Below the pieces are notes generated by a model that worked only from the letters and a program-made list of their open reading frames with translations, did not search any database and was not told the DNA's origin. Positions 35,472 to 58,851 of a stretch of 64,000 bases of DNA are shown here, one piece after another; the first letter of the stretch is position 1, and every line of letters begins with the position of its first letter. Location of the stretch: the NCBI GenBank assembly GCA_044361365.1, contig JBIKIW010000001.1:2501-66500 (forward strand), written 5' to 3'. A program made the translations under genes and the position numbers. This stretch comes from Limisphaerales bacterium (lineage in GTDB: Bacteria > Patescibacteriota > JACMRA01).

Positions 35472-35959
35472 GGGGATGACCTAGTTTTGACAGTTGGATA
35501 TTGGCTAAAACATACTAGATAGTTTTGCTTATTTTTTCTATAAAAACGAGTAGCACTTTTAAATGCAAACAATTCAACTTCTGCCTTTGAGAAAATCGGA
35601 GGACGTATCGCACAAGCTTTAGGTCTCGAGATCACTCAGGGCGTACCCCAAACAGCAATCGCCTAGTTTAGTTGCCACTTATTGGCAGAATATCCCTCCG
35701 GATAAAATCTAAACATGGGGTACACAATTACTTTTATATTGGATTTGGCGTAAGAGTAAATTGTAGAAAAACAACACAAATTCCTTGGTTAAGTTGTTAG
35801 CGGGCTAACCGAGTACAATGCTAACAGTGTGCTTAAAACTTTTTTGATTTGGTTTGAGATCACACTTAAAACAATTAAATCAAATATGCGTCTAGTTTGA
35901 AAAAGTGTTTTAGACCCAAATCCAATTGGACGGGGGTGCAACTCCCCCCATCTCCACCA
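35472..35959 (+). ncRNA. ssrA: tmRNA (SsrA)
   Basis: The 5' GGGGATG pairs with the 3' CATCTCC, including the G3-U pair, followed by ACCA. The T-arm-like GGACGGGGGTGCAACTCCCCCC precedes it. A candidate tag frame starts at GCA 35565. The length of 488 nt is at the long end for tmRNA. Confidence 0.85.
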
Positions 35960-35988
35960 AGAGAAAAATAATAATTAAATGATTTAAA

Positions 35989-36459
35989 ATGCCTGAAACT
36001 TCAAAAGTATCGATGGATTTACTACTATACCTTTACGGTTTATACAAAACGAACTTAACACTATTTAAAAAAATAGACTTATTTTTTGACCCACCTGCAA
36101 AACTTATGAATACAACTTACAGTGGTGGCGAAGAATCTGATCAGTTAAAAGAAGATTTCTTAAAAGTGTGTCAAACAGCTGATGAAATGAGAAGATCCTT
36201 AGATTTTCTTGAAAACGAAGGTTTTATTAGCTATAATAATTGTAAGTATGATGAGTGGAGTGTAGAGTATAAAGAGTTTAATCTTCACTCTTCGGGAATC
36301 AAAATAATCGAAGGTATTAATGACAAGAATCATAGAAAAAGTTTTTCAGATAAATTCCATATTACCATAAATGTTAATTTAGAAAGTCTTATAAAAAATG
36401 AACTAGGAGGTCTAAATTTAAGTTTGCTGAATTTAAAAGATTTACTCGGAATGCTCTGA
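35989..36459 (+). CDS. Hypothetical protein
   Basis: 156-aa ORF directly after ssrA. The segment RRSLDFLENEGFISY is wHTH-like, but this is weak. Confidence 0.5.
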   Translation: MPETSKVSMDLLLYLYGLYKTNLTLFKKIDLFFDPPAKLMNTTYSGGEESDQLKEDFLKVCQTADEMRRSLDFLENEGFISYNNCKYDEWSVEYKEFNLHSSGIKIIEGINDKNHRKSFSDKFHITINVNLESLIKNELGGLNLSLLNLKDLLGML

Positions 36460-36579
36460 AATTCTTAAACTGAGAAATAACTTAATTAGTACAACAATAC
36501 CAAATTTAACCGAGGAAATATTAGGTCTTGAAAGGTTTAGTTAGGTTAATTAGATCGAATTTACTCTGTTTGAATATAT

Positions 36580-36852
36580 TTAAAACCAGAATTTCTTCAT
36601 TTGAACTAAGAAATTTTTATCTATTTCTACATCGCTATTTGCAATAACTGAATCAATTCCACAATTAGGACAAATAGCTGTTTTACATTCGTGTTTTGCT
36701 TCGTTAACCCATTCGCTAATCGTATTTGGGTGATAAATTTCTAAACAATAAAAACAACCACAACTATCAGATTTTGCTAGACTTGGTTTATTACAAATAC
36801 AGAAATCGTGGTACTTTTGCAGTTCTTCTTTGGATAGAATTTCGTTTTTCAT
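36580..36852 (-). CDS. Small cysteine-rich (probable zinc-binding) protein
   Basis: 90 aa with nine Cys, including CGCFYC and CPNCG pairs. Confidence 0.55.
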   Translation of the reverse strand: MKNEILSKEELQKYHDFCICNKPSLAKSDSCGCFYCLEIYHPNTISEWVNEAKHECKTAICPNCGIDSVIANSDVEIDKNFLVQMKKFWF

Positions 36853-37011
36853 AAGTATGAATTATCTTTTTATAACTTATTTACTTTAAATGCAAATTTA
36901 TCAACTCAAATTTTACTCCACTCTACCCCAATTTGACCACCTATTTAAAACTCAAACTACAACATCAGCTCATCCCTTTACAGTCCACAACAATCCAACT
37001 AAAAACACACT

Positions 37012-37610: not shown

Positions 37611-38642
37611 CTAAACCACCCCCGTCAACCTCCTAACAATTTCCTCCTCACTAGGTAAAAACTTGGCGATATTTTCTGGGAGATCTGAGAAATTTTTGTA
37701 TTGATTATAGGTTGCTACTCCAACGGGTTGATTTTGAGCTTCAAGTAAATACTCTACCACTGTTCTGTCTTTATCTTTGCAAACTAAAATCCCAATTGTA
37801 GGGTTGTGTTCTGGTTTTTTGATAGTTTGGTTTGTGGCTAACAAATACATCTGCAATTGACCTAAATCTTTTGGATCAAATTCTCTAGCCTTTAGTTCAA
37901 AAACTACATAACAATTTAGCGTCAGATTAAAAAACATTAAATCCACAAAGTATTCTTTTTCCCTATATTCTAGCCTAAACTGCCTGCCCACAAAAGCAAA
38001 ACTTCCACCCATTTCTGACAAAAACCTCACAATATTAGTCACAATGCTACTTTCTAATTCTTGCTCCTCAAATGGACTATCGGGGTTTATCAGTTCCACA
38101 TTGTAGTCATCTACAAATTCCCAGGCAACTCTACTTTTCAAATCTTCAGAAATTGTGCTGCCAAAGTTATTTTGTGTAAGCAATTGTTTTTGATAAAAGT
38201 TTTGCTGAATTTTGTCTTTTAGATCAAGTTTTGACCAACCCATTTGTGCGGTCTTTTTGAGGTAAAATTCTCTTTCCAAATCATCTTTACACTTTTCAAT
38301 AATCATACAATTTTGCACCCAGCCAATTTCTGCCACTAGCGGTGTCAGTTTTGCATTTTTTGAATAAACTTCATACAAAGACTTCATTCTCCATATATTT
38401 CTAGCTGAAAATCCTTTTGTTCCTGCAAATTCAAATTGTAAGTCTTTGGCTAATTTTTCGACCGTGCTATTACCCCAACATTCCAGCTCAATTTTCTCAG
38501 AAATAGTTTTGCCAATATTCCAGTACAGCTCCACAGTTTGCCTCGAAACGGATTTTAGCATGCTGTACCTAGCAAGTCTTATGTTTTCAACAAGTTGCTT
38601 TAGGGTTTGAGAATATTCGGTTGATAATTGGCTTTTGGTCAT
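37611..38642 (-). CDS. DUF1016/YhcG-family PD-(D/E)xK nuclease-domain protein
   Basis: N-terminal VELYWNIGKTISEK...WGNSTVEKLAKDL...KGFSARNIWRMKSLY. C-terminal nuclease core YFVDLMFFN...VVFELKA. Confidence 0.85.
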   Translation of the reverse strand: MTKSQLSTEYSQTLKQLVENIRLARYSMLKSVSRQTVELYWNIGKTISEKIELECWGNSTVEKLAKDLQFEFAGTKGFSARNIWRMKSLYEVYSKNAKLTPLVAEIGWVQNCMIIEKCKDDLEREFYLKKTAQMGWSKLDLKDKIQQNFYQKQLLTQNNFGSTISEDLKSRVAWEFVDDYNVELINPDSPFEEQELESSIVTNIVRFLSEMGGSFAFVGRQFRLEYREKEYFVDLMFFNLTLNCYVVFELKAREFDPKDLGQLQMYLLATNQTIKKPEHNPTIGILVCKDKDRTVVEYLLEAQNQPVGVATYNQYKNFSDLPENIAKFLPSEEEIVRRLTGVV

Positions 38643-43869: not shown

Positions 43870-45528
43870 GTGACTTCCAAAAAAACATTCCTTAAAAGAT
43901 TTATCAATTTTTCTTGGTTAAAAGAGATTAGTGGTGAAAATCTATTTCTGATTTATGCTATTTTAGTTTTATTAATAAGTTTTTGCACCTATTTTGTAAA
44001 CTATCAAAACCCTCAAGCTCCATTTTGGGATGAAAATTTTCACATAGCTTCAGCTGAAAAATATATTCAAGGAGACTTTTTTATGGAAAACCATCCACCA
44101 CTAGCCAAGATGTTGATTGCAGTTGGTGAGGTGATTTGGAATCCAAACAAAGATATCGATAAATCTGAATTTGTAAAAACTGATTATATTAAGGAATTTC
44201 CTAAAAATTATTCATTTACAGGAGTTAGATTTTTCCCAGCTCTTGCGGGTTTTTTGAGTTGTTTTTTGTTTTTTTTGCTACTGTACTTAATAAGTAGAAA
44301 CAGCCACTTGTCTTTTTTGTTTTCAAGTTTATATTTGTTTAACAATCAGATGATAGTTCATTTTCGGGGGGCTATGTTGGAGAGTATTCAGATTTTTTTT
44401 GGACTTTTGGTGCTTTTGTACACAGTTCATCTTTACCTTAGAAGTAAGAAAATCAAACTGTGGGAATATTTAATTCTGGGGGTTTTGGTTGGATTGGTTG
44501 CTAGTGTAAAAATAAACTCGCTTATAATGCTATTGGTTTTTCCATTTTTGTTTCTTACACGTACTCAATTCAGTGTTTTAGATAGGAAAGAAATCTTTCA
44601 GACCATAAAAAAATTAGTAATTAAAGGTTCGTTTTTTGTTTTTGGAGTCGGATTAATTTTTATGAGCATTAGTTACCTTCACTTAGCAATTGCTCACAAA
44701 CAATTACCTGATAAAGAAAACAACAATGGATATAAAATTATACCAAGTTATCAAGAAGTTTTGGATAAAAAAGACTATTATAATCCGCTAAACGCCTACA
44801 AAGCTAGCCTTGCCTGGTATTTTTATCAAAATCAGTACAACAACGGCGTACCTAAATTAGACGAAGCTAAACCGGATGAAAATGGTAGTTATCCCACTGA
44901 CTGGTTGGTTGGTAGAAAAGCTATTAGTTATAGATGGGAAAAATATCCAATCGAGAAAAAAAACCATTTTACTTATAATCTTTTTGAGCCTGATGGTAGC
45001 AAGACAATCACTCTGGACGAATATTCTCAGCTTCCAGAAAATGAAAAAAATAACTGGTTTGTGGTGGTAAAATATCTATATATTCAAACTAATCCGATTA
45101 TTACTTTTGTGAGCTTAGCAGCCTTGGTTTTAGCTCTTGGTTTGATTATTGCAGTGGCTTTTTTTGGTCTAAAAGTGCAAAATAAAAATCTTTTTAATCT
45201 AATTCTTCTCTTTATCTTTTTGTATGGGTTTTATATGTTTTCAGCTCTTCGAACGGAGCGGGTTTTGTATTTATACCACTATCTAATTCCATCTATTTTC
45301 TTGTTTATAGCAGGCTTTCTGGTGTTTTTGTATCGCTTTGAAACAATCCTTAGAGAAGATGATTATTGGCGAAAAAGATTGTATTTTTTGGTAGCTTTGG
45401 TAGCAGCAGCTATTTTTATTAGCTTTGTTTTCTTCGCTCCCTTTACGTACTATTTACCACTTTCTTCTCAGGAATTTCAAATGCGTAATTGGTTCAGTTT
45501 TTGGGGATTAAAAGATGTTAGCGGGTAG
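43870..45528 (+). CDS. PMT/GT39-family phospholipid-carrier-dependent glycosyltransferase
   Basis: FWDENFHIASAEKYIQGDFFMENHPPLAKMLIAVG matches the PMT loop-1 DE motif and the HPPL box; multi-TM protein. Confidence 0.8.
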   Translation: MTSKKTFLKRFINFSWLKEISGENLFLIYAILVLLISFCTYFVNYQNPQAPFWDENFHIASAEKYIQGDFFMENHPPLAKMLIAVGEVIWNPNKDIDKSEFVKTDYIKEFPKNYSFTGVRFFPALAGFLSCFLFFLLLYLISRNSHLSFLFSSLYLFNNQMIVHFRGAMLESIQIFFGLLVLLYTVHLYLRSKKIKLWEYLILGVLVGLVASVKINSLIMLLVFPFLFLTRTQFSVLDRKEIFQTIKKLVIKGSFFVFGVGLIFMSISYLHLAIAHKQLPDKENNNGYKIIPSYQEVLDKKDYYNPLNAYKASLAWYFYQNQYNNGVPKLDEAKPDENGSYPTDWLVGRKAISYRWEKYPIEKKNHFTYNLFEPDGSKTITLDEYSQLPENEKNNWFVVVKYLYIQTNPIITFVSLAALVLALGLIIAVAFFGLKVQNKNLFNLILLFIFLYGFYMFSALRTERVLYLYHYLIPSIFLFIAGFLVFLYRFETILREDDYWRKRLYFLVALVAAAIFISFVFFAPFTYYLPLSSQEFQMRNWFSFWGLKDVSG

Positions 45529-45707
45529 GGCAACTAGATATAGTTGTTAAGTACAATTTTAGATACTACAAGTTGAATTTTTTATTTGATAAATTGGTTA
45601 TTTTTAAGTAAAAAACCCTTTAAAAAGAGGATATTGATGTTTTTGACCAGAATTTAAAATTATTTCAGGTGATTATTAATAAATAAAATCAATAAATAAT
45701 TAAAAAA

Positions 45708-46955
45708 ATGCTCAAAATATCAAATGTTGAGAAAGGTAACAAGTTTGAAGCTGAAGTAATACCAATGTTTGAAAAATTATTACAAAATGGAGAATTGTCA
45801 GTTAATCCTAAAATTTCTAAATTAAGAATTAAGCCAAAATATTACAATAAAGACAGAGGTAGCTTAGATGCTTTTGACTTATCAATAGAAACTTATCCAG
45901 TGGGTGCTAAAATGCCGTCTTTGGTTCATATAATAGAATGTAAGCACTTTTCAGGAACTATAAATGTTGATGAGCTTGAACAAACCCTTTCCTTAACTTC
46001 AAATCATTTTCTAAAAGTAAGTAAAGATTCAGATTATAGTTTTGCAGTAAAAGTGATTTTTATATTCAAAGGTAAAATATCTCAAACACTTTCTACTAAA
46101 GCTAAAAATAATGGGGTTATGTTAATAGAGGTTTTGGATAAAAAAGATTACAAGATTCTTCTCTATAAAAATGAGAAAAAAGATTTTAGAAAATATGTTT
46201 GTCTTGATAAAAATATTGAAAAAGAGTTGGTAAAAACGGTTTACAGTTTAATAAATAACAACAATATAAATCAACCCAAAATTGAAGGTCTTAGAAGGCT
46301 TTCTAGGGTAGATGTTAAAGAAATTGCAAGAAAAGAATTTAAAAAAGTTGGAGCAATAAAATCGACTAGGTGTTTAAAAACACGAATTGTAAATTATATT
46401 GAAGAAACTTATTCTATTAAGGTTTGTTATAAAGTTTTTGACGGTTGCACGGAAGACAGTTTAGGGTACTTAGATATAAACTCTAATTCTATTTTTATTA
46501 ACGAAAACTTACGTGACACAAAATTGGAAATGTATCCAATTTGCCATGAAATAGGACATTTTATTTTACACAAGGATTTAATAAATAAAGATAATTTCGT
46601 GGACTATTTGAATTTGCCAGATTCTCTATATAATCAAAAAACTGGAAAATATGATTTAGTAAATGACAGGAATTTTATTGAATATCAGGCAAATACTTTT
46701 GCAGTTGAGTTTTTTCTTAATGAAGAACTTCTGAGATCTTTACTAGTAGAAAAACAAATTGAGATGGGCTTTAGTAAAACAAAAACAGGTTATATCTTTG
46801 CTGATAATCAGTATTGTAATTTAAAAGACAAAGAAGAAATAATCTCTCATTTATCAGAATATTTTAACACAACAAAAAAAGTTATAGAAAGCAGATTGGA
46901 AGGCTTAAAAATGTTAAGGTGTAATCATTTTACCCAATCACAGCCTGTTTTTTGA
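45708..46955 (+). CDS. Fusion of a restriction-endonuclease-like (PD-(D/E)xK) N-domain with an ImmA/IrrE (M78) zinc metallopeptidase C-domain
   Basis: N-terminus GNKFEAEV...DAFDLSIE...VHIIECKHFSGTINVDELEQ. C-terminus ICHEIGHFILH (HExxH) with downstream EYQANTFAVEFF, typical of ImmA/IrrE. Confidence 0.7.
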   Translation: MLKISNVEKGNKFEAEVIPMFEKLLQNGELSVNPKISKLRIKPKYYNKDRGSLDAFDLSIETYPVGAKMPSLVHIIECKHFSGTINVDELEQTLSLTSNHFLKVSKDSDYSFAVKVIFIFKGKISQTLSTKAKNNGVMLIEVLDKKDYKILLYKNEKKDFRKYVCLDKNIEKELVKTVYSLINNNNINQPKIEGLRRLSRVDVKEIARKEFKKVGAIKSTRCLKTRIVNYIEETYSIKVCYKVFDGCTEDSLGYLDINSNSIFINENLRDTKLEMYPICHEIGHFILHKDLINKDNFVDYLNLPDSLYNQKTGKYDLVNDRNFIEYQANTFAVEFFLNEELLRSLLVEKQIEMGFSKTKTGYIFADNQYCNLKDKEEIISHLSEYFNTTKKVIESRLEGLKMLRCNHFTQSQPVF

Positions 46956-48603
46956 CCAAATCGAACGAAACTGAGCCAAGTGTGAGATCTACGGTAACTG
47001 GGTTTTTTTCGTAGGCGTAACCAGCTTCTGATTTTCCGTTGGATTTTAGAACCGCAAGTTTTACTTTACTTTCTGCTTGTTTACCCAAAATTGCACGTCT
47101 AAGTGGGGAAGGGTTGTTTCTACTGGAGACGATTTTCTCACCATCGACTTCCAAAATAATATCACCTTCTTTCAAACCTGCCTGAGCTGCGGCTGAATCT
47201 TTAGCAATTGGGCTACCTTGTTCGCTGAATATAATTTCTCCATAATCTACAGGAATCCAAGAATTTTGAGACTTTCGCAGAGGTGTAATTTGTAATGAGG
47301 CTAAACCGATTCTAGGACGAACAATTTGACCTTTGGTTAGATAACCTTCCAAAACAGTCTTTATCGTTCGGGAAGGGATTGCAAGTCCGATATTTTGAGC
47401 ATCAACAGTACCCAAAGTATTCATGCCAATTAACTGACCAGAAGCATTAAATAGCGGTCCTCCAGAGTTTCCACGGTTAATAGCTGCGTCGGTTTGAATA
47501 AGGTTGTCAGCTTGAAAAGTAGTGTCTGTACATTGGTCTTTTATTTCAGTTTCAAAACTTCTATCCAGACCTGAAACTATCCCTCGAGTAACAGTATTTT
47601 GAAGCTCTCCTAATACGTTTCCGATGGCTACAACTTCTTGCCCTAATTTCAACTTTTCACTGTCAAAAAAGCTTACGGTTTTGAATTTCTCAGTACTGCC
47701 TTCTATTTTTAAAACAGCTAAATCATCAACTGGGTCTATACTTTTTAGGGTTAGATTATAAATTTTTTGATCACTAGAAACTCCAGTAATTTGAATTCTA
47801 GAAATATCGTTTTTACAGACCGTAGCAACTACGTGCTTATTGGTAACCACCAACCCATCCTCACTTACAATATAACCACTTCCAGCACTTAGATCTTGTC
47901 CTAAATCTACACCATTGCTTTTGCTTTTCAAGCTTATAGATAACACTGTTGGAAAAACGTCTTCCACAATTTGGGTCACTTCTTTACTATCAGTTGGGTC
48001 TTTGAAAGCTAAGTTTGGATTATTGCTAACAGCTGTAGAGCTATTTTGAGAGGAGCTTGAGCTTGTTTCACCTTGAGTTACTGTTGTTGATACGCTTGAA
48101 CCTGAGGATGATTCAACCAAATTGTTCAAAAAACTATTTTTAATAACCCACTTACTTCTCTCATCTTTTGGATTTACCACCACCAAGACCACAGCAATAC
48201 TACTCAAAATTAATCCCAAAACCAGTATAAAGGCTACCGTTCTAGCCATGCGTCTGATCGAGGAGGTTGTATTTGTTATTTTGGAGTATTTTTTTGGTTC
48301 AAAATTAAGGGATTCTGGGTTGCTATTTGAATTTGAATTTTGATTAGGCTGGTTGAAACTATTCGGATTGTTAAAATTATTTTGATTCGTAGAACTTTGC
48401 GAGAAGTCGTTTAAGCTGTCTCCACCAAAAGTATTATTTAACTCAGCATTGCTGAATTGCTGGTTGGAATTTAAATTTTCTAAGCCTTCTGTCGAGTTTG
48501 ATGTAGTTGGTTTCCAATCATTATTAAAATTAAAATCGGAATTTTGCCAATCTTGATTTGGGTTGATTGGTTCTGGGTTTTGTTTTTGATCGTCTGGTTG
48601 CAT
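46930..48603 (-). CDS. HtrA/DegP-type serine protease with a PDZ domain and a Q/N-rich N-terminal tail
   Basis: TNKHVV (His), DLAVLKI (Asp), GNSGGPLF (Ser), and a C-terminal PDZ (GLKEGDIILEVDG). One TM helix follows the low-complexity tail. Confidence 0.85.
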   Translation of the reverse strand: MQPDDQKQNPEPINPNQDWQNSDFNFNNDWKPTTSNSTEGLENLNSNQQFSNAELNNTFGGDSLNDFSQSSTNQNNFNNPNSFNQPNQNSNSNSNPESLNFEPKKYSKITNTTSSIRRMARTVAFILVLGLILSSIAVVLVVVNPKDERSKWVIKNSFLNNLVESSSGSSVSTTVTQGETSSSSSQNSSTAVSNNPNLAFKDPTDSKEVTQIVEDVFPTVLSISLKSKSNGVDLGQDLSAGSGYIVSEDGLVVTNKHVVATVCKNDISRIQITGVSSDQKIYNLTLKSIDPVDDLAVLKIEGSTEKFKTVSFFDSEKLKLGQEVVAIGNVLGELQNTVTRGIVSGLDRSFETEIKDQCTDTTFQADNLIQTDAAINRGNSGGPLFNASGQLIGMNTLGTVDAQNIGLAIPSRTIKTVLEGYLTKGQIVRPRIGLASLQITPLRKSQNSWIPVDYGEIIFSEQGSPIAKDSAAAQAGLKEGDIILEVDGEKIVSSRNNPSPLRRAILGKQAESKVKLAVLKSNGKSEAGYAYEKNPVTVDLTLGSVSFDLVKKQAVIG

Positions 48604-53946: not shown

Positions 53947-56900
53947 TTAATTAATTTCAACTGTTTGTTTCGGAGATAAATTTAAACTTGAATCTGATTT
54001 TAAGTTTTCAATGGTGGCACTTTGTACATTAAAACCCCCAGCACTAAAAGCTTTTGCAAAATAGTTTATTTTTATTGTTGATAAGCCAGTTTGGTTGGGG
54101 TAGATACAAAAATTAATAGTTTTAGTATCGTTTTGATAAGGTGTAATTTGGTTTATAGAGTCAGTTATTTTTTCGGGCATTATTTTGAGTCCAGCAGGTA
54201 CTTGATCACTAACTTTGTAGCAACCATCTAGCAAGTTATTTCCAAACTCGATTTCCAAGCCAACGTTAACCAAATCATTTTTATTAAACTTGTTAGTTGG
54301 AGTATTTTCAGTTTGGTAAATTCTGGTAATTTTTGGTTGATTAGGGTTAGATTCAAAAGCCAATGTGTAGTTTAAACCAAGAGATATTTCTCCAGTTTTA
54401 ATTTCTAAATTTAAATCTTCTAAAGCTTTTTTATTTAAGTTAATTTTAAATAATTTATTGTATTCAACTGTTACTTCTTTTTTCTGACCATCGATTTGAT
54501 AACTAAAAATAATTTTATCAGTTTTGAGATTTTTTAGAGTTTTTTGAAGATATAAAATTTGCTTAAAAGAAGAGTAATTATTCTTGGCTAAATACTCATT
54601 TAAATCTTTAGCATCTGGTTCATTTAGTAGATTAGCTAAACCTAAAGCCTGATTAGTTAATTCCAAATTCTGATCCAAATTATCACCCTTTATATATTTA
54701 GAATTATCACTCACTTGAGAGTTTTCTTGTAAAATTTGGTAGTAATTCTGACGAGCTTTTTCTTTATCACCAGCATAATCCAAAGCTTGCGAAATTATCA
54801 ATTTTTGGTTTAAAGTTAAATCAGTTTTTTGGTTCAAATTTTGTAATTGTTGCAAAACATTGTGTTGGTTTAAAGTTAGTCCAAAAAGTATCCAAAGGTG
54901 ATCTTCAAAATTTTCTTGAACTTTACTATTTTCTGCTTTAAAAAAGTTAAAGGATCTTGTTCCAGTTAAATTATTCAAATCACTTTCTAAAACTTGAGTT
55001 GTAAATTTTATATCTTTTTGAGAATCGGGGAAATTGCTAAAACCTCCATTTTTATTAAACGTATCTAGTTCTGGGGCGTTCGGTTTTTTAGTTGAATCGT
55101 AATATTGAGTAAGTAGTTTTTTAGCTAAATAAGAAATTTGCAAACTCTCTAAAGTTCCGCTATCTGAATTCGCCATTTTTTGTAGCTGAGTGTAGTATCC
55201 AATATTTTCAGCCGAGCCTATTACCACCTGAAAGGTTTGATCTTCGGGTAAATTTGTTAGACTAGCTTTTTGGCTTAATTCTGGGTAGGTAAACTGTTGG
55301 GTAATACTTTTTTGATTAGTGGATTTAACACTTATAATCTGTTGAATTTTGCTCTGCTTTTCTCCATTTTTGACACTAAGATTGAGTTCTAATTCTCCAA
55401 TCTTAAGCTTTGGTAATTGAACTTCGACCCCTGAAGCTAAGCCTTTTTGAGTTTTCTTAAATTCTAAATAGGGGATTTCTATTGTATATTCAACCTCAGT
55501 TTTGGGATCTAGCTTTTCACCAATAGTTTGTAATTTAATCGAGGGTTGGTCATTTTCTAGATAATCTGAGCTTAAAATACTTGCAATTTGTAAATCTGTA
55601 GCGGTGTAAATAGTTGCTAAGTTACTGCCAAAAAATAAATCTGAACTAACAACTTTAGCCAAAATATCCCAAGAATCAAAGCTATCAGGTAAATTAAAAT
55701 TAGCTTTAGCAAGACCGTTTTGATCACTTTCAATTTCTTCAAAAAAGATAACTTCAGATTTTTTAGGTTCATTTTGTAAATCAGATTTTGTAAGTTTTTG
55801 TGGGGAAGTCGAATCCGAATGAGAATTGTAGTTTTGATTAATTCCTGTACTTAAATTACTATAAATGTTTTCTGACTTATTTATTTCTAAATTTTCACCA
55901 TTAGCAGTTTTCGGACTAACCCAGACTAAGATTTTAGATTTCTTAGGTTCGTTTTTTAAGTCACTTATTTTAAATTCTACAGAGGCATTTTCTCCTGATT
56001 GATAGACACTTTTGTTACTAAATATTTCTACTTTTAATTCCTGATTTTCTTTGGTAAAATTAACTGGGTAACCTTCTGGGCTAATTTTAGAATAGTTTTT
56101 ACCGTCAAACTTTACACCTGAAAAATTTATATTTGGAATACCACTTTCAGTAAAATTATATTCGTATTGAGATTTGCTTTGCAAGCTATATTTTTTGATT
56201 CCATTTTGACTTTGAATAATTAGATAATTGCTATTTGTTTGAGGGATATCGGTTTGACCATTTTTTTGAATTTCCAATTTTACCACTTCTCCGGGTTGGT
56301 AGTTTTTTTGAGAAAGATTTTGAGCTTTTTGATCTATAAATTGAAAGTTTTGGGTTGTTTCAGGTGAACTATTTGTAGTTGTAGAAAAATAGCGACTGAA
56401 CAAAATATTTTTATTATCAGAATCCGTTAGTTGCAGATTTATTTGGTAGTAGGTTTCTGATTCAAAGCTTATTTCTAGCCTAGCCAGACCCTGATTGTCG
56501 GTGCTGACTTTGGTTTCAGTTTGTTTTTTGTCACGCCTAGTATATGAGTACTGAGTTTCAGTTTGCTTAGTAATTGGGTTGTAATTTTGGCCAGTTTCAA
56601 TTTTATCAAAAACATAGCTAGTTATTTGAGCTAAAATATCTTTGCTACCAATTGGATTTCCTTTCAAATTGTTAATATTTTGTAGCCCACTAGTGTATTT
56701 GAAGGTATCTAGAGAGTTTAAATTGATATCAAGGATTCCTTTACTAGTGTCTGTTTTGGATTGATCAGAGATGATTATTTGGTATGGGAAGTAGGGTATT
56801 TTTAAACTACTTTTAATATCAGATTCTTGTGGGTTTTTTAGTTGAACTAAAATGCTAGTGTGTGCAATTGGCTGGTAGCTTTTTTGAACAATCGAAGAGA

Positions 56901-58851
56901 CTGGATATTTGATACTAAAATTACCAAAATTATCTGTAACAACTTCTCCATTTACATCTCCAGAATAATTTAAACTCACTTGACTAGCTGGAGTTTGGTC
57001 TTTGAAATTTACTTTTCCACTGATTACAATTTCTTCATTTTTTAAATAAAACTTTTTGTTCGATTCTAAGAGAATTTGGTAGTTTTTTGGCGTAGGATTT
57101 TGAACTCTAAAATTGCTATTAATTATAATCTCATTTTCAGTATTTTTTTGTAAATTTAGTTGGTAATTTCCCTCAGGCAGATTTTGTAAATTAAGACTTG
57201 ATAGGAATGTATCTAAAGAAGAAAGTGAAATAGTTTGATCCTGAATTAAGACAGTTTTTTGGTTTTCAATTTTATAAACAACAGCTTTTAGAGAGTCTAT
57301 TTTTTCGCCAGTTCTAGATTTGGCTAAACCCCAAAAAGAAATTTTATCACTGGGTTTGTAGGTATTTTTGTCGAGGTATAAGTAACTCCAGTAATTAGCA
57401 TTTTTAGTTTCATTTAAAGGTGAATTTTGTTTTGTTTTGGTTGTTGATACGATTAGTATTTCTTTGTCTGAGATTACTTGATAAAATTGATATCTGTCTT
57501 CATTATTTTTTGGTTTTGGTTTATCAAAAAAAGCTAGACCACTATCGTCTGTAACGGCTAATTGCTCACCATTTATGTCTTTAATTTGAGCTATGGAAGC
57601 AGGTTTTTGGGTTTGTATATTGTTTGCCCAAGCTAAAATTTTGTTGTTGTCTGTGGTAAAATTTACGGTCAAATCAGTAGATTGCAAAATAGCTGAGTTT
57701 TGATTTTCAGGAAGGTGCAAAAGATAAAAACCTTTTTCAAGCTGAGCTGGGAATTTTACAAAATTTTGAGTATCAGTTTTTTCAATTCCAAAACTTTCAC
57801 CTAACACTTTTTGTAAATTTTTGAGATCGTATTTTTCTTTTTGATCTTGATAATTTGTCCAATTTGGTAGCTGTTGCTTGGTTTTAAGATATTCCAAAAA
57901 CTGCCCCAAATCTCTAAATTTATATAGCTCAAGATTAGCTTTGTCACCAAGTTTTCCGCCAAGGGTAATATTTGGAGATACGCTTTGAGAAAATTCATAA
58001 AACTCTTGGTTAAAATAAGTTCTGTTTTCTGCAACCTGGGAGTCTTGTTGAGTTTCAAACTGCCAGCTAAAATCGTTGTCTAAAAATTGCTTACTACCTT
58101 CCAATGCCAAGCCTTTTTTGATTGTTATGGTATAAATTGTAGCGGGCTCTAGTTTTTCTGGAATGAAATTAATTTTGTTACCAATTTTTACAAATTTACC
58201 CTTGGTTGGTGGAGAGATTTCCCAAAAGTTTTCGATTGATTGAAAAGTCTCGGTGTTAAACTCTACTTCAATTTTGGAGTTGGTGGAGATGTCGGAAGTA
58301 TTAGATTCTGGAATGGTTTTTGTGACAGCAAATTTTTGGTAAGTTTGAAAAGCCCAGCTAAGTTCTTTAGTTTGATTTTGGTTACTAGTATCTTCTATGT
58401 TAAGACTAAATTTTTGTACCGAACCGGGGTCAAAAACGTTTTTTAGTTTGAGTAAAAATTCTTTATCGCTTTTTTGAGTGATTTCTATTTCTTGCTTTGG
58501 GTCTAATTTTAGATTGTCAGTAACTTGGTATTTAGTTAGTTTGATTTCACTTTTAAGAATATATTTAGAGCTTTCCAGAACCCCTATAGAATCTGATTGT
58601 TCGGGAGTGAGGGTGATTTGGCTGGGTTTGATTTGAATACTTTTGGTTGGAGAAATTTCAGCGTTATTTGGTTGGTTAAATTGGATAAGTTGTTTGCCGC
58701 CAGCTGTATTTAAAATCACAGCAACCACTAAAATCAGCACCAAAACTAACCCCAAACCAAAGCTCCAAAATAACGATCTTTTTTTAGTCTTTTGAGGTTG
58801 ATTGGCAGGATTTTGTTTTTGTTTTTCAGCGTGTGGTGAATTTGCCATCAT
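53947..58851 (-). CDS. Alpha-2-macroglobulin-family giant envelope protein (1634 aa) without a thioester motif
   Basis: N-terminal TM anchor and repeated Ig/MG-like segments. A2M_N-like DSFDSWDILAKVVSSDLFFGSNLATIY. The sequence SGTLES sits where the GCxEQ thioester would be. There are only two Cys in the whole protein. Confidence 0.7.
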   Translation of the reverse strand: MMANSPHAEKQKQNPANQPQKTKKRSLFWSFGLGLVLVLILVVAVILNTAGGKQLIQFNQPNNAEISPTKSIQIKPSQITLTPEQSDSIGVLESSKYILKSEIKLTKYQVTDNLKLDPKQEIEITQKSDKEFLLKLKNVFDPGSVQKFSLNIEDTSNQNQTKELSWAFQTYQKFAVTKTIPESNTSDISTNSKIEVEFNTETFQSIENFWEISPPTKGKFVKIGNKINFIPEKLEPATIYTITIKKGLALEGSKQFLDNDFSWQFETQQDSQVAENRTYFNQEFYEFSQSVSPNITLGGKLGDKANLELYKFRDLGQFLEYLKTKQQLPNWTNYQDQKEKYDLKNLQKVLGESFGIEKTDTQNFVKFPAQLEKGFYLLHLPENQNSAILQSTDLTVNFTTDNNKILAWANNIQTQKPASIAQIKDINGEQLAVTDDSGLAFFDKPKPKNNEDRYQFYQVISDKEILIVSTTKTKQNSPLNETKNANYWSYLYLDKNTYKPSDKISFWGLAKSRTGEKIDSLKAVVYKIENQKTVLIQDQTISLSSLDTFLSSLNLQNLPEGNYQLNLQKNTENEIIINSNFRVQNPTPKNYQILLESNKKFYLKNEEIVISGKVNFKDQTPASQVSLNYSGDVNGEVVTDNFGNFSIKYPVSSIVQKSYQPIAHTSILVQLKNPQESDIKSSLKIPYFPYQIIISDQSKTDTSKGILDINLNSLDTFKYTSGLQNINNLKGNPIGSKDILAQITSYVFDKIETGQNYNPITKQTETQYSYTRRDKKQTETKVSTDNQGLARLEISFESETYYQINLQLTDSDNKNILFSRYFSTTTNSSPETTQNFQFIDQKAQNLSQKNYQPGEVVKLEIQKNGQTDIPQTNSNYLIIQSQNGIKKYSLQSKSQYEYNFTESGIPNINFSGVKFDGKNYSKISPEGYPVNFTKENQELKVEIFSNKSVYQSGENASVEFKISDLKNEPKKSKILVWVSPKTANGENLEINKSENIYSNLSTGINQNYNSHSDSTSPQKLTKSDLQNEPKKSEVIFFEEIESDQNGLAKANFNLPDSFDSWDILAKVVSSDLFFGSNLATIYTATDLQIASILSSDYLENDQPSIKLQTIGEKLDPKTEVEYTIEIPYLEFKKTQKGLASGVEVQLPKLKIGELELNLSVKNGEKQSKIQQIISVKSTNQKSITQQFTYPELSQKASLTNLPEDQTFQVVIGSAENIGYYTQLQKMANSDSGTLESLQISYLAKKLLTQYYDSTKKPNAPELDTFNKNGGFSNFPDSQKDIKFTTQVLESDLNNLTGTRSFNFFKAENSKVQENFEDHLWILFGLTLNQHNVLQQLQNLNQKTDLTLNQKLIISQALDYAGDKEKARQNYYQILQENSQVSDNSKYIKGDNLDQNLELTNQALGLANLLNEPDAKDLNEYLAKNNYSSFKQILYLQKTLKNLKTDKIIFSYQIDGQKKEVTVEYNKLFKINLNKKALEDLNLEIKTGEISLGLNYTLAFESNPNQPKITRIYQTENTPTNKFNKNDLVNVGLEIEFGNNLLDGCYKVSDQVPAGLKIMPEKITDSINQITPYQNDTKTINFCIYPNQTGLSTIKINYFAKAFSAGGFNVQSATIENLKSDSSLNLSPKQTVEIN

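What the first reader, a model, noticed from the sequence alone, without database searches (positions are those of the whole stretch)
45708..46955. Single-gene fusion of a restriction-nuclease fold and an ImmA/IrrE metallopeptidase
The N-terminal 150 aa carry a Mrr/NERD-like core (FDLSIE...IIECKH). The C-terminal part carries HEIGH plus the downstream EYQANxFA motif of M78 ImmA/IrrE peptidases.

ImmA/IrrE proteases normally act on a partner HTH repressor or antitoxin encoded next door. Here no HTH gene is adjacent. The gene stands alone after a 180-nt AT-rich gap, and its 3' end overlaps the convergent htrA by 26 nt, which suggests a recent insertion.

A protease-gated nuclease would be a plausible one-gene abortive-infection or defence device. 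I do not recognise this domain combination as a described system.
Basis: partly seen in the sequence, partly recalled or inferred. Interest (0 to 1): 0.7.

Follow-up and report, generated by a model that had tools for sequence, protein, structure and literature searches.

The report
Fused nuclease-peptidase gene, likely defence
A small uncultured bacterium has picked up a single foreign gene that joins a DNA-cutting enzyme to a zinc protease; this uncharacterised but widespread family sits among anti-virus genes and mobile DNA elsewhere, so it is a plausible, untested one-gene immune device.

Summary
ORF 45708..46955 (+, 415 aa) encodes an N-terminal Mrr-type PD-(D/E)xK nuclease domain joined by a flexible linker to a CapP/IrrE-like M78 zinc peptidase.

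- **Catalytic residues.** In 129 diverse family representatives both catalytic sets are invariant: E14, D57, E77, K79 for the nuclease and H280, E281, H284, E325 for the peptidase.
- **Family size and spread.** At least about 660 clusters at 50% identity. Most are in Bacteroidota, with scattered copies in other phyla.
- **Partner genes.** None is conserved in 84 loci. XRE HTH genes make up 2 of 147 immediate neighbours.
- **Phages and plasmids.** The family is virtually absent from both.
- **Neighbourhoods.** Copies recur on conjugative or integrative elements beside Hachiman, GmrSD, restriction-modification, pAgo and TIR genes, and also sit alone among housekeeping genes.
- **In this window.** The host is a Patescibacteria (CPR) bacterium. 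The gene fills a strain-variable slot: a sister strain carries a methyltransferase gene there, with homology breaking at 45528/45529 and resuming at 46923.

So this is not an ordinary ImmA/ImmR pair. A stand-alone conflict or defence protein is the best reading. The "protease-gated nuclease" mechanism remains inference. I found no publication or PADLOC model describing this fusion.

The parts
45708..46955 (+). Complete ORF, 415 aa: Mrr-type nuclease domain + linker + M78 peptidase module
   Evidence: ORF call. Full-length homologues at E 1e-54 to 1e-21. The identical protein and DNA occur on 14 metagenome contigs in the same context.
45708..46166 (+). N-terminal PD-(D/E)xK (Mrr_cat-like) nuclease domain, residues 1-153. 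Catalytic E14 (45747-45749), D57 (45876-45878), E77-C78-K79 (45936-45944).
   Evidence: E14, D57, E77 and K79 are invariant in 129 representatives. Mrr_cat is found in 20 of 25 homologues. Foldseek matches MspJI 4f0p, AF1548 1y88, AspBHI 4oc8 and Cdn1. pLDDT is 78-89.
46167..46277 (+). Inter-domain linker, residues 154-190, variable in length and sequence
   Evidence: pLDDT is below 50 for residues 154-166 and 181-188. The columns are gapped and variable in A1.
46278..46922 (+). M78 (ImmA/IrrE/CapP-type) zinc peptidase module with helical C-terminal subdomain, residues 191-405. HEIGH at 46545-46559; H288; Glu ligand E325 at 46680-46682 within EYQAN.
   Evidence: Pfam PF06114 at 39.9 bits. PADLOC capP E 4.6e-10. 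Profile against PDB: CapP 7t5t E 2e-11, IrrE 3dte E 5e-6. Foldseek matches CapP and IrrE/PprI with probability 1.0. H280, E281, H284, H288, E325 and Q327 are invariant.
45529..46922 (.). Strain-specific cassette (intergenic leader plus gene) with no counterpart in sister strain L110
   Evidence: blastn of the window against L110: homology (about 84% identity) ends at 45528 and resumes at 46923. L110 carries a Methyltransf_33 gene plus a 79-aa ORF in this slot. Gene GC is 0.272, second lowest of 50 ORFs, z = -2.1.
45529..45707 (+). 179-nt AT-rich leader. No HTH ORF, no Rfam match, no unusual fold, no consensus sigma-70 promoter on the + strand.
46930..46955 (.). 26-nt overlap of the convergent 3' ends. 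The last codons of the gene are read from the antisense of the conserved htrA 3' end.
   Evidence: The window protein lacks the roughly 30-aa C-terminal tail of most homologues.
43870..45528 (+). Upstream flank: PMT-family glycosyltransferase (housekeeping, conserved in relatives)
   Evidence: Pfam PMT and PMT_4TMC. 72% identical in L098 and syntenic in L110.
46930..48603 (-). Downstream flank: HtrA-like serine protease with PDZ domain
   Evidence: Pfam Trypsin_2 and PDZ. Syntenic in L110.

Best explanation
This is a horizontally acquired, self-contained conflict (most likely anti-phage or anti-plasmid defence) gene. It makes one polypeptide with two active enzymes.

- **N-terminal domain.** A Mrr-type PD-(D/E)xK DNA endonuclease with no DNA-reader domain and no partner methyltransferase.
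- **C-terminal module.** A CapP/IrrE-type M78 zinc peptidase that has lost the GAF sensor domain and has no XRE repressor substrate next door.

**Shown**
- The fusion is obligate in this M78 subfamily.
- Both active sites are under strict conservation.
- The gene moves as a single-gene cassette between phyla and lands in variable slots, conjugative-element cargo regions and defence islands.

**Inferred**
- By analogy with CapP and IrrE, whose peptidase is switched on by single-stranded DNA (PMC13228613), the peptidase module senses an infection or DNA cue.
- It then acts either on its own chain, with the flexible linker (residues 154-190) as a candidate site, or on an invader or host protein.
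- The nuclease is the DNA-degrading effector.

In the window the gene replaced or filled the PMT|htrA slot of a Patescibacteria genome.
For: - **Domain identities.**
- **Catalytic residues.** Invariant in 129 representatives that share only 19-35% identity with the window protein.
- **Family size.** 663 representatives at E < 1e-30.
- **Obligate fusion.** The M78 subfamily occurs almost only in 400-460 aa Mrr_cat + M78 proteins. Short or split forms are frameshifts, an IS630 truncation or remnants.
- **No conserved partner.** The commonest neighbour family occurs in 7 of 84 loci. HTH_3 is found in 2 of 147 immediate neighbours and 3 of 150 neighbours at positions 2-3.
- **Defence and mobile-element neighbours.**
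  - Hachiman HamAB, GmrSD + CoiA_nuc, and an MmeI-type RM gene beside a PRTase + PNP module whose PNP gene hits PADLOC PDC-M60C.
  - ThsB_TIR + caspase, YobI-ATPase and RloB/AAA_21 + KAP.
  - pAgo, DrmMII, PD-T7-4, ShosT, PbeA and mREase_IV.
  - CTnDOT tra genes, relaxases and integrases.
  -.
- **Patchy distribution.** Bacteroidota, Gracilibacteria, Calditrichota, Campylobacterota, Ignavibacteria, Proteobacteria and this CPR genome.
- **Strain-variable slot and low GC.**
- **Phages.** 0 genuine hits in 50,697 phage records and only 2 full-length hits in 2.9 million IMG/VR contigs. One of those lies beside a reverse-transcriptase gene and neither has an ImmR.
Against: - No functional data exist. 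No defence phenotype, nuclease activity or proteolysis has been shown for any member.
- Context enrichment is qualitative. Many copies, including this one, lie among housekeeping genes.
- Neighbours also include anti-restriction ArdA (2 loci) and RadC, which would fit a mobile-element offence or establishment role.
- The peptidase substrate is unknown. Nothing here shows self-cleavage or coupling between the two domains.
- The window copy is divergent: at most 36% identity to any relative, WIEWQAN changed to FIEYQAN, a 9-residue insert in the nuclease domain, and the C-terminal tail lost. It could be inactive despite keeping every invariant residue.
Confidence: 0.5

Rival explanations
1. Mobile-element weapon or establishment factor (anti-defence). 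As proposed for ArdC and the metallopeptidase-bearing polyvalent proteins of conjugative elements, the protein would act in a new host. The DNA-binding nuclease-fold domain would target it, and the peptidase would destroy host restriction or defence proteins or process the protein itself.
For: - Copies lie inside or beside conjugation modules: CTnDOT tra operon in L011, relaxase in L014, integrase/DUF3871/AAA_24 elements in L007, L009 and L012.
- ArdA is an immediate neighbour in 2 loci, and RadC occurs in at least 4.
- The theme of a DNA-binding domain plus a zincin peptidase is described for ArdC and polyvalent proteins (PMC5512222).
Against: - Only 1 full-length hit in 72,556 plasmids and none in genuine phages.
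- Many solitary chromosomal copies are not on recognisable elements: this window, Acinetobacter L102, and neighbours such as methylmalonyl-CoA mutase or TGT.
- The peptidase is of the CapP/IrrE M78 type. The polyvalent-protein clades are described as distinct from known zincin clades.
- There is no ArdC-N domain.
- Strict conservation of the nuclease catalytic residues is not needed for a mere DNA-binding role.
Confidence: 0.15
2. Single-chain addiction or toxin-antitoxin-like module. The nuclease is a toxin kept in check in cis by the peptidase module, or by its turnover. This would stabilise the DNA segment that carries it rather than fight phages.
For: - M78/COG2856 proteins are classic components of TA-like modules (PMC2701414). 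Examples are PD-lambda-2B, which is toxic alone (PMC9519451), and the weak RmrA hits.
- The gene spreads as a single-gene selfish cassette with patchy distribution.
Against: - Known M78 TA-type modules carry an XRE HTH in cis or in trans, which is absent here.
- A covalently linked toxin and antitoxin lacks the differential stability that addiction needs, unless the chain is cleaved.
- Several copies are decaying through frameshifts and IS insertions without any obvious rescue gene. This suggests that loss is tolerated.
Confidence: 0.12
3. Type IV (modification-dependent) restriction enzyme. The Mrr-type nuclease cuts modified foreign DNA constitutively, and the M78 module serves only as a DNA-recognition or oligomerisation scaffold.
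For: - The best structural matches of the N-terminal domain are the catalytic domains of modification-dependent enzymes MspJI and AspBHI.
- No methyltransferase partner is present.
- Neighbours include GmrSD and mREase_IV.
Against: - There is no SRA-like or winged-helix modification-reader domain.
- The peptidase zinc ligands and the catalytic Glu are invariant in 129 sequences. That would not be expected of a scaffold.
Confidence: 0.1
4. Ordinary ImmA/IrrE-type regulator. The peptidase cleaves an XRE repressor encoded elsewhere in the genome or element, and the nuclease-fold domain is its DNA-damage sensor.
For: - An M78 peptidase closest to CapP and IrrE.
- In three Flavobacterium elements an HTH_3 gene lies 1.4-6 kb upstream, with RadC genes between.
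Against: - There is no adjacent HTH in the window.
- HTH_3 accounts for 5 of 297 surveyed neighbours within three genes.
- The family is absent from phage lysogeny modules.
- The GAF sensor domain of IrrE and CapP is missing.
- The nuclease catalytic residues are invariant.
Confidence: 0.08

Closest known systems
CapP (M78 peptidase of the CapP/CapH regulator of CBASS and other immune operons; PDB 7T5T)
   Same: - Closest solved relative of the C-terminal half: profile E 2e-11, Foldseek probability 1.0, PADLOC capP E 4.6e-10.
- The same HExxHxxxH ... E zinc site, and a long loop between HExxH and the Glu ligand where CapP has its cysteine-switch loop.
- Both are linked to DNA and to bacterial immunity.
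   Different: - CapP has peptidase + HTH + GAF domains, is activated by ssDNA bound between the peptidase and GAF domains, and cleaves the adjacent XRE repressor CapH (PMC13228613).
- Here there is no GAF, no CapH-like gene and no regulated operon.
- Instead a catalytic nuclease domain is fused at the N-terminus.
ImmA/ImmR (ICEBs1, prophages) and IrrE/DdrO (Deinococcus)
   Same: Same Pfam family, PF06114/COG2856, with the same fold (PDB 3DTE, 8SLM) and the same catalytic motif.
   Different: - Those are two-component protease/repressor switches encoded side by side in regulation modules.
- This family has no such partner in 84 loci and is nearly absent from phages.
Mrr / MspJI / AspBHI-type restriction endonuclease catalytic domains (Pfam Mrr_cat PF04471)
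   Same: - E...D...ExK catalytic signature.
- Mrr_cat matches in most homologues, and structural similarity of the model.
- No cognate methyltransferase.
   Different: - Type IV enzymes carry a modification-reading DNA-binding domain, which is absent here.
- None is known to be fused to a peptidase.
M78-containing defence TA-like systems: RosmerTA RmrA (identification from memory) and PD-lambda-2B (PMC9519451)
   Same: An M78 peptidase domain inside validated anti-phage systems. Weak PADLOC RmrA hits fall on the HExxH region.
   Different: - Those proteins are XRE-HTH + peptidase fusions that work with a separate toxin gene.
- Here there is no HTH and no second gene.
Nuclease-protease pairs in Hachiman, AVAST, Lamassu and DRT (PMC12799240)
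   Same: The concept is the same: a latent nuclease unleashed by a linked protease after infection is sensed.
   Different: - There the nuclease is MBL-fold, the protease is trypsin- or caspase-like, and the two are separate genes attached to a larger sensor system.
- Here a PD-(D/E)xK nuclease and an M78 zincin share one stand-alone chain.
- Activation by cleavage is not shown here.
ArdC and metallopeptidase-bearing polyvalent proteins of conjugative elements (PMC5512222)
   Same: A DNA-binding N-terminal domain plus a C-terminal zincin peptidase in one chain, encoded on conjugative elements, with proposed autoproteolytic release of domains.
   Different: - The N-terminal domain differs (ArdC-N against a catalytic REase fold), and so does the peptidase clade.
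- ArdC-type proteins are abundant on plasmids, whereas this family is not.

Membership tests
Peptidase M78 (ImmA/IrrE, Pfam PF06114, COG2856) | Profile match above the curated threshold | tested here: met
   39.9 bits against a cut-off of 22, E 4.4e-10, residues 233-347. All 25 members of A1 match.
Peptidase M78 (ImmA/IrrE, Pfam PF06114, COG2856) | HExxH plus a downstream Glu zinc ligand | tested here: met
   H280, E281, H284 and E325 are present and invariant in 129 representatives.
Peptidase M78 (ImmA/IrrE, Pfam PF06114, COG2856) | Fold similar to solved IrrE/CapP peptidase domains | tested here: met
   Foldseek 7t5t E 3e-5, 8slm E 7e-5, 3dte E 9e-5, probability 1.0. Model pLDDT is 86-93 over the core.
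ImmA/ImmR-, IrrE/DdrO-, CapP/CapH-type protease-repressor switch | XRE-family HTH substrate encoded adjacent to the peptidase or fused to it | tested here: not met
   None in the window. HTH_3 is found in 2 of 147 immediate neighbours and 3 of 150 at positions 2-3. No HTH domain is detected in the protein.
ImmA/ImmR-, IrrE/DdrO-, CapP/CapH-type protease-repressor switch | C-terminal GAF-like sensor domain (IrrE, CapP) | tested here: not met
   Only about 70 helical residues follow the Glu-ligand helix. Matches to CapP and IrrE cover the peptidase part only.
ImmA/ImmR-, IrrE/DdrO-, CapP/CapH-type protease-repressor switch | Location in a prophage or ICE regulation module, or upstream of a regulated immune operon | tested here: not met
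   The window gene lies between PMT and htrA. There are 0 genuine phage hits, 2 full-length hits in IMG/VR without ImmR, and no conserved downstream operon.
Mrr_cat / PD-(D/E)xK restriction-endonuclease fold (Pfam PF04471) | Profile match | tested here: inconclusive
   The window protein has no hit at E <= 1. It aligns over its full length with homologues, of which 20 of 25 match Mrr_cat, best E 4.6e-8.
Mrr_cat / PD-(D/E)xK restriction-endonuclease fold (Pfam PF04471) | Catalytic D ... (D/E)xK signature with an upstream helix Glu | tested here: met
   E14, D57, E77 and K79 are invariant in 129 representatives.
Mrr_cat / PD-(D/E)xK restriction-endonuclease fold (Pfam PF04471) | Alpha-beta-beta-beta-alpha-beta core similar to solved nucleases | tested here: met
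   Foldseek MspJI 4f0p E 2e-3 probability 0.99, AF1548 1y88 E 1e-2 probability 1.0, AspBHI 4oc8, Cdn1 9u49. The secondary-structure order is given.
Type IV modification-dependent restriction enzymes (Mrr, MspJI family) | Separate DNA-modification reader domain (winged helix or SRA-like) | tested here: not met
   No such domain is found by Pfam or by fold search. The nuclease domain is the bare catalytic core of about 150 aa.
Type IV modification-dependent restriction enzymes (Mrr, MspJI family) | Cleavage only of modified DNA | not testable with these tools
   Needs biochemistry.
Known or candidate defence systems in PADLOC-DB v2 (2023) | Full-length match to a system component model | tested here: not met
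   Only partial, peptidase-level hits: capP at residues 231-351 and RmrA at residues 260-294. Nothing covers the nuclease half.
Protease-activated pro-nuclease modules (HamM and related, PMC12799240) | MBL-fold nuclease encoded next to a trypsin- or caspase-like protease fused to a sensor | tested here: not met
   The folds and the gene organisation differ.
Protease-activated pro-nuclease modules (HamM and related, PMC12799240) | Nuclease activated by site-specific proteolysis | not testable with these tools
   Needs expression and a cleavage assay.
ArdC / polyvalent proteins | ArdC-N or other polyvalent-protein domains, with plasmid or phage carriage | tested here: not met
   No such Pfam domain. 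One full-length hit in 72,556 plasmids. PHROGs hits cover the peptidase part only.

The most novel reading that the evidence does not exclude
The family is a new mechanistic class of single-protein abortive-infection system. A CapP-like, DNA-activated M78 peptidase would cut its own chain (or a neighbouring copy) in the flexible linker and so unleash the fused Mrr-type nuclease. That is a zymogen nuclease with sensor, switch and effector in one 400-aa polypeptide. The class would be widespread in Bacteroidota mobile elements and transferable as a one-gene cassette even into minimal CPR genomes.
Probability: 0.2. Interest if true: 0.75.

Novelty: new variant of a known kind. Interest (0 to 1): 0.5.

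Why it matters
- **A missing case for M78 peptidases.** In bacterial immunity M78 peptidases are known only as partners of XRE repressors (CapP/CapH, ImmA/ImmR, IrrE/DdrO, RosmerTA, PD-lambda-2). Here the same peptidase type has exchanged its repressor and GAF sensor for a catalytic nuclease and works without any partner gene.
- **If it defends.** It would add a compact one-gene system, easy to test by two point mutants. It would show another way in which proteolysis and DNA cleavage are coupled in prokaryotic immunity. It would also be one of few defence candidates seen in a Patescibacteria genome.
- **A cautionary example.** The automatic name "ImmA/IrrE family metallo-endopeptidase" hides a different biology.

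Tried and rejected
- **Alternative genetic code.** GyrB places the host near SR1 and Gracilibacteria, which read UGA as Gly, and the gene ends in TGA. Rejected: genes are long and unbroken under table 11, and TGA ends 4 of 52 ORFs.
- **Footprints of a mobile element around the gene.**
  - The 10-nt direct repeat TTTTTGACCA at 45640 and 46949 is at chance level, by my estimate about 9 such pairs in 1.8 kb.
  - It does not coincide with the homology break points.
  - No integrase or transposase lies nearby.
- **A regulatory RNA, small ORF or promoter in the 179-nt leader.** Nothing found.
- **Natural split versions (nuclease gene + peptidase gene).**
  - L091, L093/L094 and L105 are frameshifts.
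  - P0219 is truncated by an IS630-type transposase.
  - P0267 is a remnant.
- **A conserved partner gene.** None found. The recurrent PRTase + PNP_UDP_1 module (5 of 84 loci) changes side relative to the gene and is absent elsewhere, so I treat it as a neighbour, not a component.
- **A clean empty site in relatives.** The 72%-PMT relative L098 has rearranged synteny right after PMT. The informative comparison came from L110.
- **Shine-Dalgarno usage as a marker of foreign origin.** Uninformative, because the host lacks SD motifs in 48 of 50 genes.
- **Selection from population variants.** Uninformative: six contigs carry identical DNA, and variants differ at only 1-2 residues.
- **Literature.** Nine searches found no paper on an Mrr_cat + M78 fusion. 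The "RmrA" search returned only unrelated uses of the string.
- **Quantitative defence-island enrichment.** Not achieved. The family-scan summary lists only the 25 commonest families, so counts are qualitative.
Full report
**1. Observation**

The ORF is there as described: 45708..46955 on the + strand, ATG to TGA, 415 aa.

- It follows a 179-nt gap (45529-45707, GC about 0.27) after a PMT-family glycosyltransferase gene (43870..45528).
- Its last 26 nt overlap the 3' end of a convergent HtrA-like gene (46930..48603, -).
- The gap holds no HTH ORF (only a 23-codon ORF) and no Rfam match. Its RNA fold is no better than shuffled sequence (z = -0.9), and it has no consensus promoter.

**2. Domain identities**

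*C-terminal half*
- It matches Pfam Peptidase_M78 above threshold (39.9 against 22 bits) and the PADLOC capP model (E 4.6e-10).
- A profile of 129 family members hits CapP (7T5T, E 2e-11) and IrrE (3DTE, E 5e-6) among solved structures.

*N-terminal half*
- It gives no Pfam hit by itself.
- The protein aligns end to end with homologues, of which 20 of 25 match Mrr_cat (best E 4.6e-8).

*Model*
- An AlphaFold2 model was built on the 25-sequence alignment (mean pLDDT 79). Residues 154-166 and 181-188 are below 50, so there are two well-predicted domains and a floppy linker.
- The C-half matches CapP and IrrE/PprI.
- The N-half matches the catalytic domains of MspJI, AspBHI, AF1548 and Cdn1.
- Against predicted viral structures only single-domain matches appear. 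PHROGs families cover only the peptidase part.

**3. Family and conservation**

- The exact protein occurs on 14 metagenome contigs, always in the same housekeeping context and with identical DNA.
- The nearest other relatives are only 36% identical and come from Flavobacteriia.
- A profile search of 1.84 billion cluster representatives finds 663 proteins at E < 1e-30. Nearly all of the best 150 are full length, 390-470 aa.
- In an alignment of 129 such representatives (19-35% identical to the window protein) the invariant columns are E14, D57, E77, K79, H280, E281, H284, H288, E325 and Q327. These are exactly the PD-(D/E)xK catalytic set and the zincin site.
- A search with the C-half profile alone returns almost only 400-460 aa Mrr_cat + M78 proteins.
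- The few short or split forms are decay products:
  - frameshifts in L091, L093/L094 and L105;
  - an IS630-type insertion in L107-L109;
  - a remnant in L104.
- The fusion is thus the native, obligate state of this M78 subfamily.

**4. Neighbourhoods**

*Survey of 84 loci.* A scan of one genome per GTDB species found 234 relatives. The best 80 are mostly Bacteroidota, with single cases in Gracilibacteria, Calditrichota, Sulfurimonas, Ignavibacteria, Hyphomicrobiales and Marinicella. I called ORFs in 84 non-redundant loci and clustered the five genes on each side.
- No partner is conserved. The commonest neighbour family (DUF3871) is in 7 of 84 loci.
- Of 147 immediate neighbours only 2 carry HTH_3. 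Of 150 neighbours at positions 2-3, 3 do.

*Loci annotated gene by gene*
- L011: inside a CTnDOT-like tra operon.
- L014: beside a relaxase, two ThsB_TIR genes and a caspase.
- L012: in integrase/DUF3871/AAA_24 elements, next to an MmeI-type RM gene and a 1,580-aa PRTase + PNP_UDP_1 module.
- L007: beside Hachiman HamAB.
- L010: beside CoiA_nuc/DUF6035 and two GmrSD genes.
- L015: beside FRG and a YobI-ATPase.
- L104: beside RloB/AAA_21 and a KAP NTPase.
- L103: on a Spirosoma plasmid near a CoiA-family gene.

*PADLOC hits among neighbours*: PDC-S26, PDC-S51, PD-T7-4, PD-Lambda-2_A, mREase_IV, ShosT, PbeA, pAgo, DrmMII, PDC-M48B and PDC-M60C.

*Other neighbours.* Many are plain housekeeping genes, such as methylmalonyl-CoA mutase, acyl-CoA dehydrogenase, TGT, glycosidases and DNA ligase. 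ArdA (2) and RadC (4) also occur.

*Phages and plasmids*
- The phage collection gives no genuine hit. The two "Acinetobacter phage MD-2021a" records are bacterial chromosome carrying nrdAB and metE.
- The plasmid collection gives one full-length hit.
- IMG/VR gives two full-length relatives in 2.9 million contigs. One is disrupted and lies beside a reverse-transcriptase gene, and neither has an XRE partner.
- The second refutation test (ordinary prophage ImmA with ImmR) is therefore not met.

**5. The window copy as an acquired cassette**

- GyrB from the window is 62-69% identical to proteins named candidate division SR1 and Patescibacteria.
- The standard code applies. Genes are unbroken under table 11, and TGA ends 4 of 52 ORFs.
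- A sister strain (L110; GyrB 97% aa, DNA about 84% identical) has the same gene order: gyrB, rnc, SulP, PMT, [slot], htrA, M16 peptidase, HU, ATP-synt_D.
- In L110 the slot holds a 404-aa Methyltransf_33 gene and a 79-aa ORF.
- DNA homology stops at 45528, the PMT stop codon, and resumes at 46923.
- The last 11 codons of the gene are therefore read from host DNA antisense to htrA. This fits the missing C-terminal tail of the window protein.
- More distant relatives also lack the gene after PMT.
- Gene GC is 0.272, the second lowest of 50 ORFs (z = -2.1).
- No integrase or significant flanking repeat is present, so I infer exchange by homologous recombination in the flanks.
- "Recent" holds at the level of species within a genus. 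The donor is unknown, because the best homologue is only 36% identical.

**6. Mechanism**

*Shown*
- Two catalytically competent domains in one chain.
- No partner gene.
- Mobility as a one-gene unit.
- Frequent residence in cargo and defence regions.

*Inferred*
- The closest characterised peptidases, CapP and IrrE, are stimulated by ssDNA bound between the peptidase and GAF domains. In CapP a cysteine-switch loop between HExxH and the Glu ligand blocks the zinc site (PMC13228613).
- This family lacks GAF. It has a 40-residue loop at the same place, with family-conserved Y300, D305 and N319, and it carries a DNA-binding catalytic nuclease domain instead.
- I therefore favour a DNA-coupled peptidase controlling, or cooperating with, a nuclease effector in defence against invading DNA.
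- Whether the peptidase cuts its own linker, an invader protein or a host protein is unknown.
- The concept of protease-unleashed nucleases has precedent with different folds and separate genes (PMC12799240).
- Rival readings are given with their evidence in the Rival explanations section: anti-defence factor of conjugative elements, single-chain addiction module, Type IV restriction enzyme with a scaffold domain, and an ImmA acting on a remote repressor.

**7. Comparison and novelty**

- The protein is a member of Peptidase_M78 and, by homology, of the Mrr_cat fold.
- It fails the defining features of the ImmA/ImmR-type switch (adjacent XRE substrate, GAF sensor, regulatory location) and of Type IV enzymes (reader domain).
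- It matches no PADLOC system over its full length.
- Nine literature searches and eleven papers consulted gave no description of this fusion. M78 in defence is described only with XRE partners (PMC9519451, PMC2701414, PMC13228613).
- Databases already hold the family under generic names.
- I rate it a new variant of a known kind: an uncharacterised, widespread nuclease-peptidase fusion that is a reasonable one-gene defence candidate. Interest is moderate (0.5), because the function rests on context and analogy only.

Noticed in passing
window 35472-35959 and 35987-36973: A tmRNA gene (Rfam 72.7 bits) is followed directly by about 1 kb that has no counterpart in sister strain L110. This looks like a second strain-variable slot at a classic integration site.
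   Followed up: partly
window 37611-38642 (-), variable segment 37617-38809: A YhcG/DUF1016 (PD-(D/E)xK-type) gene occupies a third slot that differs from L110, which has RibD_C and DUF1801 genes there. It is another solitary nuclease-fold gene acquired by this small genome.
   Followed up: partly
L110 12676-13890 (-) and 14034-14273 (+): In the sister strain the PMT|htrA slot holds a 404-aa Methyltransf_33 gene and a 79-aa ORF instead of the nuclease-peptidase gene.
   Followed up: no
L007 9253-15685; L009 9253-15696; L012 2057-8000; also L056, L059: A recurrent module lies next to family members in 5 of 84 loci, on either side. It consists of a 1,577-1,602 aa protein (faint PRTase hit), a 400-aa PNP_UDP_1 protein and sometimes a roughly 145-aa protein. 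The PNP gene hits PADLOC candidate PDC-M60C.
   Followed up: partly
L102 (CAKLQH020000007.1, 'Acinetobacter phage MD-2021a'): This record in the phage collection carries nrdAB, metE and LysR/TetR regulators, so it is bacterial chromosome rather than phage. It encodes a 431-aa DUF955 protein whose N-terminus resembles the nuclease domain (36% over residues 8-104).
   Followed up: partly
window 46930-48603 (-): The HtrA-like protease has a roughly 200-residue N/Q/S-rich low-complexity N-terminus before a membrane segment.
   Followed up: no
window 53947-58851 (-): A 1,634-aa alpha-2-macroglobulin-like gene (MG2, bMG3 and Big_5 hits), which is large for a small genome.
   Followed up: no
L093 1794-3081 and L094 9871-11158 (Aquimarina longa): Two identical copies of a family member sit on two scaffolds, and both carry the same frameshift.
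   Followed up: partly
L107-L109: An IS630-type transposase (HTH_23/29/32 + DDE_3) is inserted so that only the peptidase half (233 aa) of a family member remains. This truncated form recurs on at least 24 metagenome contigs.
   Followed up: partly
window 45640-45649 and 46949-46958: A 10-nt direct repeat, TTTTTGACCA, brackets the gene. It is at chance level for this composition and does not coincide with the homology break points.
   Followed up: yes
L081 10001-11137 (Gracilibacteria MAG): The family member there is continuous only if in-frame TGA is read as a sense codon. This is consistent with genetic code 25 in that lineage.
   Followed up: partly
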